From: Lytechinus pictus
Taxonomy: Eukaryota
DNA length: 64,000 bases
Assembly: GCF_037042905.1 (NCBI RefSeq)
Contig: NC_087251.1
Coordinates: forward strand, 41,046,001 to 41,110,000
Direction: 5' to 3'
Shown here: positions 3,476 through 11,857 of the stretch, piece after piece
How positions within the stretch are numbered: position 1 is the first letter of the stretch
How the letters are laid out: each line of letters opens with the position of its first letter
Position numbers and translations under genes: made by a program
The notes under the pieces: generated by a model
Database searches by the model: none
Told to the model about the DNA's origin: nothing
The model's input: the letters and a program-made list of their open reading frames with translations, nothing else

Positions 3476-3796
3476 TTGCCTGGATTATAAGGACTTGGCT
3501 GTTAAGATTCCCTTCTCATAAACATGTTTTTTCATGTTTCCCTTGGACAGTGCTTAGACACTGGTTTACTGTTCATTGTTTCATTTTAAATATATTGTAG
3601 ATGTGTTCATCATATGTTGATTGATTGATCAAAAAAAAATTAACGACACTATCAACACATGCGTGTCATATAAGTGTCGGACAGTTAATCTGGAAAGGTT
3701 ACTATAATACAGTACAAATTACCCTAATGCAACTTTACAAAGGAACAGGATTATAAATTAGTAATTATCAGTAATAAATTAATACGTTAACTACTT

Positions 3797-3978: not shown

Positions 3979-6900
3979 CTAAAATCTAATAAAGAGATTG
4001 ATCTCCTTTAGGAAATTTACAATACATAATCGTGAAATATCTCTAAATAATTTCTTAAGGTCAGGAACATCATAAAAGTTAGTACGAATATGTGCAAAAT
4101 CAGCACATTCGATGAGGATGTGTTTAACTGTAAGTGTACGATTACATGATATGCATTGAGGTGGATTTTCTCCTGCAAATACATATGCATGTGTTAAGTG
4201 AGAATGTCCAATACGAGCACGGGTCAATACAATGTCTTCCCGTCGTTTTGCTAATGGAAGAGTATTTTGTGATTCAAGTCTTGGTTGGTGTTGATGGAGT
4301 TTATTATTAGGATTTAGATCCCATGATGTTTGCCATTTATTTCTAATATAAGTATTAACCTTTTGATTTTAGATCAGTGTAAGGTATCTGTATTTCTGTT
4401 ATATCCAGATCTAAAGCTTCTTTAGCTAACTTATCAGCTTTTTCATTACCTTGAATACCTGTATCAGGGTCGGAATTACACGGGGGCGACGGGCGAATTT
4501 GCCCCCATGACAGCCCAAATCGCCCCTAAAAATTCCCAAAACCCAATGCTTTGGGGCGACTATTTATTTCAGAATCGCCCCAATAAAATATCATCGACAA
4601 TGTAAAAAATACTTCACATAATAACGTTCTCCGGCGGCGGAGCAAGCGCATCTTTTATATCGCCCTTGCCAGCTTTAAGTTGAACGGTCGATGCAATATC
4701 CGAACCTTCCGTAACACCGGAAGCTTCGCGATTGTAAATGAACGCGCAATGCAATATGGGATGCGGAGTACGCATAGTCTTTAGCACGGGGTTTTTAGAA
4801 TTGTTGACGCACTTGCCGCATGGCTTATGTACACGTACGCGTGCACGATTAGACTGCACAGCTGGTAACGAGACCACGTGCATCGCACGGTATACTATGT
4901 GTACTAGGATGCACAGAATTGTATGCGATCAGCTGGTGATTGTGACAACGCTGATTATCGACATCGTCGAGTCGGAGTGCGAGATGGATAAGTTTCTAAT
5001 TCGAGTTCAACCTGGCTCTGCCAAACGGCCAGAGCCAGCAACGGAAGCCTCTCCAAATCGAGATACTGTTGAGAAGGATAAGCCAAAAAAGAAGCCAAAA
5101 AAGAAACAGTACTGTACAGAGACAATCGACAATAAAGTCTTGGGGCCTCGATTCGCTCGAAGCTGAAGGCGACTCTGGTGCACTAGCGTACCTACGGAGG
5201 GGGGCAGTCTGCCCCCCCTGACGAGTCACAACCCATGCACTTTTTTTTTTTTTTTTTTTTTGCTTGTCACATTTTTGGGCGGACGAATTTGCCCCCCTGT
5301 GAAAAATCCTAGGTACTCTATTGCTCTGGTGGGATCACTGTTGTTCATTGTAAGGCCTGTAGCCTACACTACAGTAATTACATTAAAAAATGTTCTGAGC
5401 TTTTAGGCATCACATTGAGTCTCGGAATGTCATAAGGTAATTGCTGATATGCGATAAAAAAGTAGCCCCATGAATTAGAAAATAGCCCCAAGATATTCAG
5501 TGGTAGCCCCAATGTAAAAAAAAAAGTAGCCCCTAAAAAAAAATAATTAATTCCTACCCTGACCTGTATGGCTTGGTATCCAAACAAATATTATTCGTTT
5601 ACCTAGTGTATTGATTTTATACAGAATTTCCAATAACTGAACAATATAAGGATGTTTATGATTTCTACTTTGTAATGCCGTTAAAGAAGACAAAGAATCT
5701 GTATAAATAACAAAAAGTCTACAGACACAGTTTTCTACAACACCTAAAGCCATTTTCAAAGCTAATAACTCAGCAGTATATATGGAAGAACTATCTGGCA
5801 ATCTAACTTGTTTTTGTATAGGACCACTTATACAAGCTGCACCTACTTTATTCTGGTGTTTTGATCCATCTGTATAGATTGCACGATAATTACTATATAT
5901 ATGTCTTATTTCTCCAAATTTATTTAGGAAAACTAAATCACTTGTAAAACCCTTTTTATATGTTCTTAGTGTAAAATCAATTACTGGTTCAGCAATCATC
6001 CATGGTGGAATATTAGATATCAAGGAAGGAGCTACGTTAGTAGCATCCAGTATATGTGTTAAAGCTTCTTTAGTACGTAAACCAAAAGTTTTGATGGCTG
6101 ATGGTTTACTAGTATAAAAATTAATATATCGTGGCGTGAATGTACAATCATATGTCGGATTATGAGAGTTATTTTTTAATTTTATCGCATAGTGTAAAGA
6201 GAGCTTTTCGTACCTTAGATGTAAGGGGGGTTCATTAGCCTCCACATAAAGACTCTCCATAGGAGATGTACGAAATGCTCCTAGACAAAGTCGAAGTCCT
6301 TGATTCTGTATGGGTTTCAATTTTTCAAGATATGACTTTCGAGCGGAACTATAAACTGCACTGCCATAATCAAGCTTAGATCTAACTAAAGATCTATATA
6401 AACGGAGAAGGACAATGCGATCAGCACCCCAATCCATTTTGGACACAACCTTCAAAAGATTTAAAGCTTTATGACACTTTTGTCTTACATAATCAATATG
6501 AGCTTTAAAATTGAGTTTATTATCAAAGATTTAGCTTAGGTATTTAGTTTGTTGAACTACAGGAATGATAGAGCCATTTATTATAATTTTAGGATCTGGA
6601 TGTACTGATCATTTAGTACAAAATGTACACAAACTGTCTTGGTTTTCGAAAAGCGGAAACCATTCTCATCTGCCCACCTTTCAATTCTATTTAGACAATT
6701 TTGTAATACTGTTTCAATGGTCGACATACTTCGTGACGAACAAGAAATACAAAAGTCGTCCACAAACAAGGACTTATCAAACCTAGGATTTACAACGTCA
6801 ACAATGCTATTGATCTTCAATAAGAACAAAGTAACAGAAAGTATGCTACCTTGAGGAACACCCATTTCCTGATTGTGTAATTCTGAAAAAGTTGACCCAA

Positions 6901-8770
6901 GGCGGACTCAAAACACACGATTCGAAAGAAAATTCGGAATGAAAATGGGCAACCTGCCCCTCAACCCAAGATTGAAAAGGTCTCTCATAATTCCATACTT
7001 CCAAGTAGTATCATAGGCCTTTTCAAGATAAAAAAAGACAGATACCACATGGTGACCTCGAATAATGCCATCACGAATGAAGGATTCAAGGCGAATAAGT
7101 TGATCAACAGTGCTTCGATTATGACGAAAACCACTTTGAAACTTTGAAATCAAACCACGCTTCTCCAAGAACCAAACTAATCGGGCATTAATCATTCTTT
7201 CCATGGTTTTACAAAGACAACTAGTCAAAGAAATGGGACGATAATTTGTAGGCTTAGATGTATCCTTACCAGGTTTCGGAATAGGAATAATGGTAGCTTC
7301 CCGCCACGAATCTGGGAAGTCACCTGTTCTCCAAATTGTGTTTAATATATCTAAGTACTAAAAGAGATGCTTCTGGTAAATGTTTTAAAAATTGATAATG
7401 AATGTCATCTGGACCAGTTGCAGTATCATGACATTTACCGAGTGAGTTTTTCAACTCAGAGATAGTAAATGGGATATTATAATCCTTTACATTATTTGAT
7501 AAAAATTGAGTTCCTGACTTTCTGCTTGATTTTTATAAATCTGAAATGTAGGAGAATAATGATTAGATGATGAGTTATGTTCAAATTCCTCTGCCAGTAA
7601 ATTAACAATATCTGTCCTTTCTGTACATTTTTCATCATCCGATTTAGTCAAATAAGATACAGAATTACTCAGATGTTTTCCACATATTTTCCTCACCATT
7701 TCCCACACTTTATTAATGGGAGTATGAATATTCAGTTTAGAAACATAATTTTTCCAAGATTGACGTTTATTTTTCTTGATAATATTGCGTGTGTTTGCTC
7801 TTGTTTCTCGATATTTTCGCAAATTGTTATTATTTGGGTATTTTTTAAATTTCCTTAAGGCCTTTTTACGACATTTAACAGCTTCTTTACATTCAGCATT
7901 AAACCAAGGATTATGTTTACGATGAGAAGAACCAGATTTTGGTATCGTATTGGTAGCTATATCAAGTAATGTATGAGAAAACAAAGCAAGAGTATCCTGT
8001 ATCCTGAAAATTATCATTATTAATATTTAATAAACACTGATTTGAGAAAGCATCCCAATTTGCTTTGTGAAGTTGCCATTTAGGAACTTTTTCCTCTGGC
8101 AAAGGTCTTACAATTTCAATAAGAATAGGGAAGTGATCGCTACCACATTGTACACTATGGACTTTCCATTGGAAATCCATAAAAATATTAGGTGAACAAA
8201 TAGATATATCGATAGCCGTCATGGAACCAGAGGCTGGATGAAGATATGTAGGAGAATCATCATTTAAAAGACATAAATCAAAATGTTCAAGCATTAGCTC
8301 AACAATATTACCTAATCTATTTGAGTTCTGACAGCCCCAAAGGGAACTGTGAGCATTAAAATCCCCTACTAACAAAAAAGGTACAGGAAGCTGGTTAACT
8401 AGTCTAACTAATTCAGCTTCTGAAAGCTCATGTCTAGGTGGAATATATATGGAACATATTGTAAAAGTGCAGTGGAGGGTTATTTTAGCTGCAACAGCTT
8501 GTAGATTAGTATGAAGTTCAAGAGCTTCACGTGGAACTCCTTTCTTAATCAATATTGATGAACCTCCAATAGGTCTACCATCTATCAAAGAAGTACTAGT
8601 TTTATTAAACATATCATAACCCCTAAATGAAATATTATCTGAATCTCTCAAAAATGTTTTTTGTAAACACATAACATATGGATTATGATTAATTAAAAGA
8701 CATTTTATTTCCTCATAATTAGGTTTTACTCCTCGACAGTTCCTTCGAACAACGGCTTTTTCCTTCCCAT
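3979..8770 (-). pseudogene. LINE ORF2 (AP endonuclease, reverse transcriptase, RNase H, CCHC), frameshifted and interrupted
   Basis: APE motifs GDFNAH and SDHFPI. RT motifs FFYLEKAYDTTW, GVPQGSILS, LFVDD. RNase H motifs YTDGS, AELLA, IYTDSLS, WIPSH. C-terminal CISCNRTLTVKHILIEC. Split over several ORFs. Confidence 0.92.
4465..5561 (+). mobile_element. Non-autonomous hAT-superfamily DNA transposon nested in the LINE RNase H domain
   Basis: TIRs cagggtcggaatta / taattcctaccctg. 8-bp TSD acctgtat (4457-4464, 5562-5569). Removing it restores WIPSHTGIQGNEKADKLAKEAL. Confidence 0.9.
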
Positions 8771-8780
8771 GATAATATAT

Positions 8781-10064
8781 TTACGTATTATCTAATTTTT
8801 GAACCAGTTTAATTTTAGAGGAGGGTTGATGAATTGGATAAATATCCATATCTTCATCTCTCTCAATTGATAACACATCATACTTATTTTTAGTTACTAC
8901 TGAGTCAGTTAACTTTGGTTTTGATACATTTATCTGAGGTTTACTTTTCACTTTAGTTGATGGTTTTTTAGTTTCTTGATTACTTGAAGTATTTCTAGTG
9001 GGAGGATCCCGTGAGAGACTTCGACTTCGGCGACCATCCTTAGTCTTAGTCTGCCCCTTCTTCTGTTGATCTTGTTTTTGAGTTTGAGACTTAGGTTTCT
9101 CTGTATTTGTTGCTTTATTATTTTCAAGAGTCACAGGGAAATCACCATTTAACCAAGTTATGTCAGTTTGGGTAGTGGCTGTAGTCTTAGGCTGTTGAGT
9201 TACTTTAGATTGTTGATTAGTTCCTCCAGTACTTTGTTTGGCCTTATCTGTGTATGAACAACTTTGAGTATGTTGTGTTTGATACAGCTTCCGTGCTTCA
9301 GGATAGGATAGGTTACCCAAAGCTTTCAGTTCTTGGATTCTTTTCTCCTCGATCCACTTTGGACATGACCGAGAATTAGCAGGATGACTGCCACCACAGT
9401 TGATACACTTTGATGGAACTTGGCAGGAAGAGCCAGTATGATCATCCTTGCCACAATTCTCACAACGCTCATTCAGTTGACAATTGCTTCTGAAATGGCC
9501 AAATTTTTGGCACTTGAAGCATCGAATGGGGTTTGGGATGTAAATATCCACCTTTACTTGCAAATAGCCAACCTTGATATATGGAGGAATGGTAGATCTG
9601 TTAAAGGTTAGAAACAAGGTATTAGTTGGTTTCTTAATTCCATTCTGATTGACTGTTACTCTATGGACATTGATTACTTGCTGATCAGCAAGTTCCTCAA
9701 GAATTTCATCATCGTCGCAGTCTCTAAGTTCAGGGCAGCGAACTACCCCTTTACACGAGTTTAAGGTCTTATGTGGTGAGACTTTAATAGGAATATTGAC
9801 AAGTTTGTCGGTCTTGAGCAAATTACTCGCCTGACCAGCTCTCTCGACTTCCACCAGAATATCACCTGATCTTAACCTTTTGATTGACTTCACAGGTCCA
9901 GCTAATGACTCGACACCTTTATTTACAGCAAATGGCGATAGTTTGAGTGGTTTATTTGGATCACTACCCTGAATGACCAGAAAACGTGGGAAGTTAACTG
10001 GCTCAATACCATCATTGGAATCACTTCTACTCCGCTTATTGGATTGTTTGTTGAAATTAGCCAT
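8781..10064 (-). CDS. LINE ORF1, gag-like nucleic-acid-binding protein (427 aa, intact)
   Basis: Open ORF with knuckles CFKCQKFGHFRSNC, CENCGKDDHTGSSC and CINCGGSHPANSRSC; N-terminal LSPFAVNKG...KRLRSGDILVEV is typical of I-group ORF1. Confidence 0.9.
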   Translation of the reverse strand: MANFNKQSNKRSRSDSNDGIEPVNFPRFLVIQGSDPNKPLKLSPFAVNKGVESLAGPVKSIKRLRSGDILVEVERAGQASNLLKTDKLVNIPIKVSPHKTLNSCKGVVRCPELRDCDDDEILEELADQQVINVHRVTVNQNGIKKPTNTLFLTFNRSTIPPYIKVGYLQVKVDIYIPNPIRCFKCQKFGHFRSNCQLNERCENCGKDDHTGSSCQVPSKCINCGGSHPANSRSCPKWIEEKRIQELKALGNLSYPEARKLYQTQHTQSCSYTDKAKQSTGGTNQQSKVTQQPKTTATTQTDITWLNGDFPVTLENNKATNTEKPKSQTQKQDQQKKGQTKTKDGRRSRSLSRDPPTRNTSSNQETKKPSTKVKSKPQINVSKPKLTDSVVTKNKYDVLSIERDEDMDIYPIHQPSSKIKLVQKLDNT

Positions 10065-10564
10065 ACTACTCTTTTTTTAATTCAGCACCATTGCTCCCCA
10101 CCCACCATCGGAGTCCAACAAGGGGACGTCATATATATATATATAAGGATAATCACTTATACTGACGCCAGAGATTTAGCAGTGCTATACTCCGAGCAAA
10201 CCAAAATCCACCCTGATTGACCTACTTAAGCAGTTGCCTTCTAAGATACTATACCAAAGTAAATTGAAAGTAGTGTCAAAAGAATCCAAGTTCAAACTAT
10301 CACATCGCTTGAGACCAAACAACACAAAACCCAAAAATACACATCAAGAGACAACAAGAAATAAACCAGTTAAAATAGCATCTTAGGGCTGAACACCACC
10401 AGCCGATTGATTTTAACCAGGCTTATAAAAACCTCCCGACTAGGAGAATCCAGGGCCAAAATGACGTGTTGTTTCAGGAGGACCGCAGTCACACCATCCA
10501 CTCAATCATCAGGATACCTTTCTCCCCCAACACGGGTCGCAGTCCACGGCAAACAGACTGTCTC

Positions 10565-10634
10565 TTTTAGTCGCCTCTTACGACATGCAGAGAATACAGC
10601 GGGCCTATTCTCTAATCCCCGAACCCACAGGGGA
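10565..10634 (-). ncRNA. Structured RNA motif at the LINE 5' terminus (three hairpins, possible loop-loop pairing)
   Basis: Stems UCCCC/GGGGA, AGAGAAUA/UAUUCUCU and GUCG/CGAC; loops GUGGGUU and GGCCCGC are complementary allowing G-U pairs. Confidence 0.55.
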
Positions 10635-10859
10635 TTCATCACATGTTGAAGAATATGAAGTAACTTTCAATTTTTTTTCAAGAAAATACCTCACTTTGTC
10701 TGTCAAAGGGACCTTTTGTGTGTGTGTTACAGAAGAATGTTACCAATATTATAAACCTGCCAAAGTCTTTGAGTGTCATCAAATAATGTACATAAAGCTC
10801 AAGGAGCTGTGATGAACTAGAATTTTGTAATTGATGGTGGAATGAAATGATGCAGAATA

Positions 10860-11159
10860 TAATGATAATAATAAAATAGTCAGTTCTTGTATACCGCATA
10901 ACACATTATGAATAAAGTCTCTATGCGCTTCCGAAGGACTTGGATATTATTACCCTGGATGTAGCTCAAGCAGCTTTTACGTGCTCGGCATTTCATGGAA
11001 TAAATTCCTGCCAGGTACCCATTCACCTCACCTGGGTTGAGTGCAGCACAATGTGGATTAATTTCTTGCTGAAGGAAACTACGCCATGGCTGGGATTTGA
11101 ACCCACAACCCACTGTTTCAAAGACCGGAGACTAATCCACTCGGCCACAACGCTCCACA
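10860..11159 (-). mobile_element. Full-length tRNA-derived SINE
   Basis: A box tggccgagtgg, B box ggttcaaatcc, conserved core cactcaacccaggtg...aatgggtacc, (att)n-like tail. Confidence 0.85.
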
Positions 11160-11388
11160 ATATAGAATTTACAACATCAAGCTATGCACTAATAAGCGCT
11201 GCTGAAGAAGCAGCTGCTACTCACCGTAGTTGCACTTTGTGTCCTCCAGAAAAAAAGTGCTTTATTAATCCAGATATTGTTTTATATATTAACTTTTTGA
11301 GTGGAAATTGAGCAGAGGACGTAAAGCAAGTAATGAAATTGACCTTCTTTCAAAATACCTCTTTGAATTTGATCTTGTTGATTTTCAG

Positions 11389-11606
11389 AGAGACCTTGTC
11401 GCTGTTGAAGAGAAGGTAGAATCCACCTCGGCTCAAGCAGCCCAGCTTGTTGAGGAATACACGGACGCTTATCAGCATATCAGTGAGGAGAATGATACTA
11501 TGGTGTCTGCATGGAATATGTTACTAGAGAGAGCTGCTTTGAGGAAAGATAGATTGATGCAAGCAGAACAACTTCAGCTTTACTTCAATGAATTCAGGGA
11601 ACTCAG
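11389..11606 (+). CDS. SPTBN5: Beta-heavy spectrin-like, internal exon
   Basis: ag|AGA...AG|gtaag, 218 nt, phase 0-2. RDLVAVEEKVE...SAWNMLLERAALRKDRLMQAEQLQLYFNEFREL. The QAEQLQ-YF motif resembles karst/beta-H repeats as I recall them. Confidence 0.92.
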
Positions 11607-11857
11607 GTAAGGACACTCCTCATTATTGTCTTATGACCGTGCTTTGATTTAGGGATTGGTTGTGAATCATTTAGATTAATTTGAGAGAAATTGTTTGGAA
11701 ATCTGTACGTTGTGTTGTGCTGAAATAAAACAAATTCCTCCCCCCCCCCTCCCAATATTGGAGACTCTTCACTTTGCTGGTTTGAGAAAATGTTGGCCAA
11801 AGAAAGTACTTCTTCACAAATGTAGTGAAACCTCTGTAGACAAGCAGAAAAGCATTA

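What the first reader, a model, noticed from the sequence alone, without database searches (positions are those of the whole stretch)
10565..10634. Compact kissing-loop RNA structure at the exact 5' end of the LINE: candidate ribozyme or cis-element
Seen: the first 70 nt, UCCCCUGUGGGUUCGGGGAUUAGAGAAUAGGCCCGCUGUAUUCUCUGCAUGUCGUAAGAGGCGACUAA, form three hairpins. Loop 1 (GUGGGUU) can pair with loop 2 (GGCCCGC), and the motif abuts the TSD. Established: several non-LTR clades define their 5' ends with self-cleaving ribozymes (HDV-like, twister). I could not fit this motif to the HDV, hammerhead, twister or pistol consensus by eye. I recall the GTCGTAAGAGGCGACTAA segment at 5' ends of other non-LTR elements, unverified. 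Inference: a structured RNA for 5' processing, promoter or translation function, possibly of an uncharacterised class.
Basis: partly seen in the sequence, partly recalled or inferred. Interest (0 to 1): 0.7.

Follow-up and report, generated by a model that had tools for sequence, protein, structure and literature searches.

The report
Pseudoknot shared by retrotransposons and viruses
A short sequence predicted to fold into a small knotted RNA forms the very start of this jumping gene and of several other animal retroelement families and also sits in the untranslated tail of several unrelated RNA viruses, and in both places it likely acts as a roadblock against the enzymes that chew RNA from its front end, though that has not been tested.

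Summary
The motif (minus strand, 10634-10561) is the exact 5' end of a decayed I-group LINE, abutting a 15-bp TSD. The conserved fold is P1 hairpin, AGAAUA linker, 7-bp PK1, P2, invariant hairpin P3, UAA, and a probable second pseudoknot. The DNA segment was described in 2016 as the 'LINE-promoter' head of Nimb/RTE LINEs and mollusc SINEs, with no structure in the parts I read. New here: the same architecture lies sense-strand in the 3' UTR of six unrelated RNA-virus contigs (tandem in two) and between genes of a 212-kb DNA virus. A DNA promoter cannot explain that. No Rfam 15 match; no known ribozyme or xrRNA class fits. Best reading: a new class of exoribonuclease-blocking (xrRNA-like) RNA that fixes retroelement 5' ends (0.5); main rival: new self-cleaving ribozyme (0.25). 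Neither is tested; one in vitro assay pair separates them.

The parts
10561..10634 (-). Whole conserved 5'-terminal RNA motif (P1, PK1, P2, P3, UAA, PK2); equals the 'LP head' of Matetovici et al. 2016
   Evidence: (one copy in the window)
10616..10634 (-). P1 hairpin: 10634-10630 with 10620-10616, 9-nt loop starting UG
   Evidence: -7.4 kcal/mol; 81.7% cells paired, where 8- and 9-nt loops are partly out of register
10622..10628 (-). PK1 5' strand (in the P1 loop)
   Evidence: 7 of 7 pairs with changes on both sides, 91.4% paired
10606..10611 (-). Conserved single-stranded linker AGAAUA directly before the PK1 3' strand; the part of the linker 5' of it varies from 1 to 121 nt among relatives
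10599..10605 (-). PK1 3' strand
10586..10598 (-). P2 hairpin (4 bp); its loop holds the PK2 5' strand (10593-10589)
   Evidence: 3 of 4 pairs with changes on both sides, 91.3% paired
10570..10584 (-). P3 hairpin, sequence-invariant stem, 7-nt loop with three variants seen
   Evidence: no covariation; conservation partly imposed by the search patterns
10561..10569 (-). Conserved UAA and PK2 3' strand (10565-10561)
   Evidence: own 4.72 vs permuted 3.86; 1 of 20000; absent in 2 of 7 viral copies
10635..10649 (-). 5' copy of the target-site duplication
3606..3620 (-). 3' copy of the target-site duplication, after a (TCAA)n tail
10430..10559 (-). Second conserved, probably structured 5'-UTR domain of the LINE (separate module)
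   Evidence: 3 sequences only
8781..10064 (-). ORF1, gag-like with three CCHC knuckles (by eye; no Pfam call)
3979..8780 (-). ORF2, broken into pieces: AP endonuclease, reverse transcriptase, RNase H; interrupted by a 1.1-kb insertion

Best explanation
The first 74 bases of this LINE are a conserved module, predicted to fold into a compact pseudoknotted RNA, that likely blocks 5'-to-3' exoribonucleases (Xrn1/Xrn2 type) at its front edge. Shown: the module is the exact 5' end of this LINE and of two SINE families analysed, its PK1 and P2 pairs covary, and it lies in the 3' UTR of six unrelated RNA viruses. Inferred: in retroelements a read-through or uncapped transcript would be trimmed back to the knot and protected there, so that full-length copies start one base before P1 whatever the flank; in viruses the same stop would leave a 70-190-nt subgenomic RNA, as flaviviral and plant-virus xrRNAs do. 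Inferred: P1, the AGAAUA linker and PK1 would form the ring around the 5' strand, with P2, P3 and PK2 bracing it. An internal-promoter role of the DNA in LINEs is not excluded but cannot be the shared function.
For: Position in viruses: sense strand, 25-119 nt (anchor of the only or first listed copy; 221 nt for the second copy of L229) after the last long ORF and 59-165 nt before the contig end in 7 of 7 RNA-virus contigs (6 distinct viruses), next to A21 capsid, noda-type capsid, S-domain coat, RdRP_3 and RdRP_4 genes (L165 resembles Kitrinoviricota RdRp clusters). Tandem copies in 2 of 6 viruses (L165, second copy cut by the contig end; L229); tandem 3'-UTR arrays are typical of xrRNAs (PMC8374639, passages). 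Topology: hairpin loop pairing with a downstream strand behind a conserved AG-containing linker parallels class 3 xrRNA, whose conserved AGY lies just 5' of the PK strand (PMC11702639). Covariation: (viral PK1 41 of 42 pairs; only the true pairing among 720 permutations reaches it). Sharp 5' boundary one base before the C-run: 17 of 22 and 18 of 20 copies share that base, the next one upstream is random, TSDs abut. Non-coding SINEs keep PK1 complementarity even across 54-121-nt linkers, so the function does not need an ORF. Ribozymes reported in linear RNA viruses lie in UTRs preceding ORFs or in pairs 186-399 nt apart in the parts read (PMC13725137), not at this position.
Against: No nuclease assay, no RNA 5'-end data (no RNA raw reads listed). 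Every characterised 5'-terminal RNA fold of non-LTR elements that I know of is a ribozyme (HDV-like, twister; PMC3774820 and PMC8501958 seen as listings; otherwise recalled). About 25 near-invariant bases, most of them 50-70 nt from the 5' end, look more like a catalytic or binding core than a ring. A linker that tolerates up to 121 nt is hard to square with a tight 15-16-nt ring unless AGAAUA docking closes it. Inserted copies keep no variable 5' overhang of flank bases, which an exonuclease stop might be expected to leave. Class-defining xrRNA features are missing (membership table). L229's downstream copy has no clear P1.
Confidence: 0.5

Rival explanations
1. A new class of self-cleaving ribozyme that cuts just 5' of P1, releasing the retroelement RNA from read-through transcripts; in viruses a slow version would release a 3' fragment.
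For: Base rate among non-LTR 5' folds (listings; recalled); double-pseudoknot compactness; many invariant bases; sharp boundary with a free upstream base; tolerance of a long linker, as in HDV-like J1/2 (recalled); ribozymes are shared between retroelements and linear RNA viruses (PMC13725137).
Against: In 6 of 6 RNA viruses it lies after the last ORF, where a cut removes the 3' end needed for replication. No core of a known class. The first base of the element differs between families (U, A, G).
Confidence: 0.25
2. A protein-binding or translation element (cap-independent enhancer, or a handle for the element's RT/ORF1 or the viral polymerase).
For: Invariant hairpin P3 without covariation suggests base-specific recognition; 3'-UTR enhancers are common in tombus-like viruses (established knowledge); in the DNA virus it lies about 200 nt before an ORF behind an AT-rich stretch; a second structured domain follows in LINEs.
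Against: Kept with covariation in ORF-less SINEs, which need no translation; no single polymerase is common to LINEs, four kinds of RNA virus and a DNA virus; does not explain the exact 5'-terminal position.
Confidence: 0.15
3. An internal DNA promoter ('LP', as proposed in PMC4758252), with RNA pairing incidental.
For: Exact 5' position; can replace tRNA heads of SINEs (PMC4758252 section 10); I-group LINEs use internal promoters (recalled); L1Tc's 77-bp end is both promoter and ribozyme.
Against: Compensatory changes in 11 of 18 pairs and presence in RNA viruses without a DNA stage. The authors give no experiment for it.
Confidence: 0.07
4. The viral copies are assembly chimeras with host SINEs, and the fold is a retroelement-only feature.
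For: Such chimeras exist: the soil and symbiont MAG hits are animal repeats in bacterial bins.
Confidence: 0.03

Closest known systems
'LP' (LINE-promoter) head of Nimb-17_LMi, I-3_DR, RTE-9_CPB and mollusc LP/MESC SINEs (Matetovici et al. 2016, PMC4758252)
   Same: Same sequence domain: the supplement's Chlamys and Pan_3 heads carry the C-run, linker, P3 hairpin and UAA, about 70 bp, 5'-terminal, shared across clades. By eye the Chlamys head also forms P1, a 7-bp PK1 and a 5-bp PK2.
   Different: Described as a putative promoter; no fold, covariation or viral occurrence in the sections, passages and supplement parts I read (figure 3 itself is not held).
Class 3 xrRNA (Tombusviridae, Solemoviridae, ST9a; PMC11702639, PMC6299227)
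   Same: 3'-UTR position; apical loop pairs with a downstream strand; conserved AG-containing stretch just before that strand; optional hairpin after the PK.
   Different: No stacked P1/P2 with J1/2 bulge, no L2B hairpin in the loop; here a single 4-5-bp stem, 8-9-nt loop, two further hairpins and a second PK; found at retroelement 5' ends.
Class 1/2 flaviviral xrRNA (PMC8374639)
   Same: Two pseudoknots, 70-80 nt, start of the 3' UTR, tandem copies.
   Different: No three-way junction, no 5'-end pk/base triple; no Rfam match.
Coremin xrRNA-C (PMC10520033)
   Same: Short 5' hairpin, A-rich spacer, downstream hairpin, strong sequence conservation, scattered over unrelated virus families.
   Different: Loop is 8-9 nt and forms a covarying 7-bp PK; no YGAD loop or coremin spacer.
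HDV-like and twister ribozymes at non-LTR 5' ends (R2, L1Tc/ingi, RTE, Schistosoma)
   Same: Exact 5'-terminal position, double pseudoknot, shared between clades, variable linker.
   Different: Order of strands differs (no P3-L3/P1.1 nest, no twister T1/T2 core); no Rfam hit at E<=10.

Membership tests
LP head (Matetovici 2016) | About 70-bp 5'-terminal sequence shared with Nimb-17/LP SINE heads | tested here: met
   Compared by eye and term search with supplement figures S2 and S7; Repbase sequences themselves not available
I-group LINE, Nimb clade | Gag-like CCHC ORF1; ORF2 with AP endonuclease, RT, RNase H; tandem-repeat tail; TSD | tested here: met
I-group LINE, Nimb clade | RT phylogeny places it in Nimb | not tested
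   No reference RT set on hand; Nimb is inferred from architecture and the head
xrRNA (functional class) | Protein-free stalling of Xrn1 at a defined site | not testable with these tools
   needs in vitro assay
xrRNA (functional class) | Ring of about 15-16 nt encircling the 5' strand | not testable with these tools
   no RNA 3D tool; H-type PK1 is compatible, long linkers are a difficulty
xrRNA (functional class) | Located in viral 3' UTR, often tandem | tested here: met
Class 3 xrRNA | Stacked P1/P2 with J1/2 bulge and L2B hairpin in the apical loop | tested here: not met
   alignment A2 against PMC11702639; descriptor scan
Class 1/2 xrRNA | Three-way junction with 5'-end pseudoknot and base triple | tested here: not met
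   covarying structure has no three-way junction; no Rfam match
Coremin xrRNA-C | 4-bp hairpin with YGAD-type loop and conserved spacer | tested here: not met
   definition from PMC10520033
HDV-like ribozyme | Nested P1-P2-P3-P1.1-P4 order with L3 and catalytic C in J4/2 | tested here: not met
   strand order; Rfam; L3 pattern is recalled
Hammerhead, twister, pistol, hatchet, twister sister, hairpin ribozymes | Class consensus core | tested here: not met
   Rfam 15 at E<=10, <=1 and <=2 on 1, 7 and 10 sources; recalled short descriptors gave only a loose hairpin-type pattern that any AGAA..GUC stretch meets
Self-cleaving ribozyme (functional class) | Site-specific self-cleavage | not testable with these tools
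   needs in vitro assay

The most novel reading that the evidence does not exclude
A new class of exoribonuclease-resistant (or self-cleaving) RNA that has moved as a module between animal LINEs/SINEs of different clades, at least four kinds of RNA virus and a large DNA virus; it would be the first xrRNA acting in cellular genomes, used by retrotransposons to mature their own 5' ends out of host read-through RNA.
Probability: 0.45. Interest if true: 0.92.

Novelty: new variant of a known kind. Interest (0 to 1): 0.82.

Why it matters
A 2021 review (PMC8374639, section 9) states that xrRNAs had been characterised only in viruses and poses cellular ones as an open search; this gives a 75-nt, directly testable candidate present in thousands of animal repeat copies. 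It offers an RNA-level explanation for the unexplained 70-bp head shared by Nimb and RTE LINEs and promoter-less SINEs. If it cleaves instead, it is a new ribozyme class. Either way it is an uncatalogued structured RNA with strong covariation that links retroelement 5' ends with RNA-virus 3' UTRs.

Tried and rejected
Single-sequence folding: not beyond shuffles for the 70 nt. Rfam: only chance-level hits, none a ribozyme or xrRNA over the motif (a GIR1 hit at E 1.2 lies elsewhere in L229). Own genome: not held, so no copy count. Expression: no RNA holder listed; one search used contigs only. Phage collection: no match covering over 28%. Bacterial occurrence rejected: 7 hits in prokaryote genomes are animal repeats in bins: L359 has a TSD, an (ACC)n tail and GT-repeats before the bacterial gene, 0 of 32 family relatives carry it, one 9-Mb MAG holds 10 decayed copies, L363 is a LINE with ORF1 38% identical to the window's; whether L363 is host DNA or a true insertion was not settled. 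Loose viral patterns gave mostly chance hits; one search had a mistyped pattern and returned nothing. No further viral copy in 78 loci scanned with model R1 (next best E 0.008). My first idea that some SINE families lack P1 was wrong: they carry it behind a long linker. Possible extra bases between TSD and P1 vanished once TSD mismatches were allowed. PDB search of the L165 ORF: none. The sigma-70 scan is not relevant to an animal LINE. Earlier scan findings: none on this motif.

Full report
1. The observation. The quoted letters are the minus strand from 10634 downward. They open a 7-kb LINE (10634 to about 3621): 570-nt 5' UTR, ORF1 10064-8781 with three CCHC knuckles by eye, and a broken ORF2 with AP endonuclease, reverse transcriptase and RNase H, a (TCAA)n tail and a 15-bp TSD with one mismatch that abuts base 10634. 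Residues 1-270 of ORF1 are 95% identical to a sea-urchin protein. Contigs of 4 of 4 public runs stop matching at 10633-10635, three with another flank shown, so the boundary is the family's own. The three hairpins are the predicted fold but no more stable than shuffles (z -1.16). Rfam 15 gives nothing meaningful. No whole genome is held; the window has one copy.

2. Relatives. A scan of viral contigs with the 15-base 3' hairpin alone gave 31 loci. In 5 of 31 the hairpin is preceded by AGAAUA and a U and followed by UAA; the other 26 have neither AGAAUA nor UAA. None of this was asked for. Eight viral scans in all gave 8 structured contigs: six distinct RNA viruses (L165, L171 with its twin L023, L202, L209, L224, L229) and one 212-kb DNA virus (L223). 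The remaining hits were screened by descriptor scripts or model R1 (30 and 78 sources) and look like chance; not every locus was scanned with R1. One metagenome scan found about 3100 stretches, of which 119 (3 of 64 parts) were returned; they fall into 22 clusters, mostly short TSD-flanked animal repeats from a few hosts, so copies are not independent; one (L267) heads a LINE with a related ORF1. Seven hits in prokaryote genomes are animal repeats in bins.

3. The fold. In alignment A2 (20 rows that I chose as intact: 6 viral, 14 others; left out were L229, L267, L240, L330, L361, L358, L334, L286 and the long-linker families) the structure P1 + PK1 + P2 + P3 has 91.6% of cells paired against 72.2% shuffled, 11 of 18 pairs with changes on both sides, and 31-48% when slid. 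PK1: 7 of 7 pairs; P2: 3 of 4; P3: invariant, so uninformative, and demanded by most patterns. With less selection (25 representatives, P1 found without the partner in 23, and wrongly placed in several) PK1 averages 5.35 of 7 against 3.63 crosswise, 0 of 20000 permutations. The six viral rows alone pair 41 of 42 PK1 positions, reached by 1 of 720 permutations. Among 115 metagenome loci with enough flank, 63 have a P1-like hairpin and 50 of these pair 5 or more of 7, against 0 of 5 on the opposite strand; the linker before AGAAUA runs from 2 to 121 nt. A second pseudoknot between the P2 loop and the bases after UAA is probable: 4.72 against 3.86, 1 of 20000 over 25 rows; 72 of 20000 in 7 viruses, absent in L171 and L202. 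These shuffles ignore relatedness; the viral rows are 31-53% identical to the window outside the anchors. Independent support for the invariant part: with the loop left free structured hits showed only three close loop variants; with the outer stem free no other stem appeared among structured hits.

4. Position. In two SINE families the element starts one base before the C-run (17 of 22 and 18 of 20 copies share that base; the next is random) and TSDs abut. In all RNA-virus contigs the motif is sense, after the last long ORF and 59-165 nt from the contig end, beside unrelated capsid and polymerase genes, in tandem in L165 and L229. In L223 it is intergenic, behind an AT-rich stretch and about 200 nt before an ORF.

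5. Mechanism. What is common to an ORF-less SINE head, a LINE head and the tail of a linear RNA virus must act as RNA and does not need translation. Two known devices fix a 5' end: self-cleavage and an exonuclease block. A cut in a viral 3' UTR removes the replication end, whereas an exonuclease block there is the standard way to make subgenomic RNA. I therefore put an xrRNA-like block first (0.5), a new ribozyme second (0.25), a binding or translation element third (0.15), a promoter alone 0.07 and chimeric viral contigs 0.03. Shown: sequence, boundary, covariation, distribution. Inferred: tertiary ring, nuclease stop, read-through origin of the RNA, direction of transfer.

6. What is known. 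PMC4758252 (section 10, passages, supplement file 4 parts 1 and 3 of 5 plus a term search) describes this head in Nimb-17_LMi, I-3_DR, RTE-9_CPB and mollusc SINEs as a putative promoter, untested. xrRNA definitions come from PMC11702639 (parts 1-2 of 6), PMC8374639 (part 1 of 5, passages, section 9), PMC10520033 (part 1 of 6), PMC6299227 and PMC12397905 (passages only); viral ribozymes from PMC13725137 (parts 1 and 3 of 7, passages); PMC3774820 and PMC8501958 were seen as listings only; RTE ribozymes and internal promoters of I-group LINEs are recalled. The motif fails the defining features of xrRNA classes 1-3, coremin and the known ribozyme classes. That it is not in print rests on ten searches of an open-licence library: the exact 15-mer (none), Nimb with ribozyme, xrRNA with retrotransposon, new xrRNA class (34), Nimb/RTE/SINE structure, Xrn1-resistant tombus-like, ribozymes in linear viruses, LP SINE names, non-LTR with exoribonuclease, HDV-like RTE. 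Subscription papers, Repbase notes, figures and unread supplements could hold an earlier description.

7. Verdict. Real and conserved; the DNA segment is known, its fold and its presence in viruses were not found described. Filed as a new variant of a known kind (a new structural class of 5'-end-defining RNA), interest 0.82.

Noticed in passing
window 10430-10559 (-); L363 2047-2215; L267 2800-2960: Second conserved 5'-UTR domain: hairpin with an invariant 8-base loop and a long irregular stem, 11 of 33 pairs compensatory in three LINEs; the loop could pair with a conserved stretch 150-170 nt downstream in all three. In L267 it lies about 280 nt from the 5' motif, so it is a separate module, possibly for translation.
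   Followed up: partly
window 4465-5561: 1.1-kb insertion in the RNase H region of ORF2 with 13-bp terminal inverted repeats and an 8-bp TSD, hAT-like non-autonomous element.
   Followed up: no
L223 1984-2050: The motif in a 212-kb DNA virus contig, intergenic, in a neighbourhood with an NAD-dependent DNA ligase gene, directly after a GCGCGCGC stretch and AT-rich repeats.
   Followed up: partly
L363 (scaffold of a bivalve gill symbiont genome): An apparently full 5' half of a related LINE (motif, UTR, ORF1) inside a 537-kb bacterial scaffold; probably host DNA in the assembly.
   Followed up: partly
L359 1-560; L364; L362: Animal SINE sequence fused to ends of soil-MAG contigs; L359 holds a 170-nt SINE made almost only of this motif plus a tail, with the longest PK2 helices seen (7-8 bp in L359 and L364).
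   Followed up: partly
L250 1371-1519: Two head-to-tail copies of the motif in an animal repeat.
   Followed up: no
L263: A SINE in which the motif is followed directly by a tRNA-like head with A- and B-box-like stretches (by eye).
   Followed up: no
window 10990-11160: SINE-like tRNA-derived repeat on the minus strand just upstream of the LINE, in an intron before an exon at about 11390-11607 (by eye).
   Followed up: no
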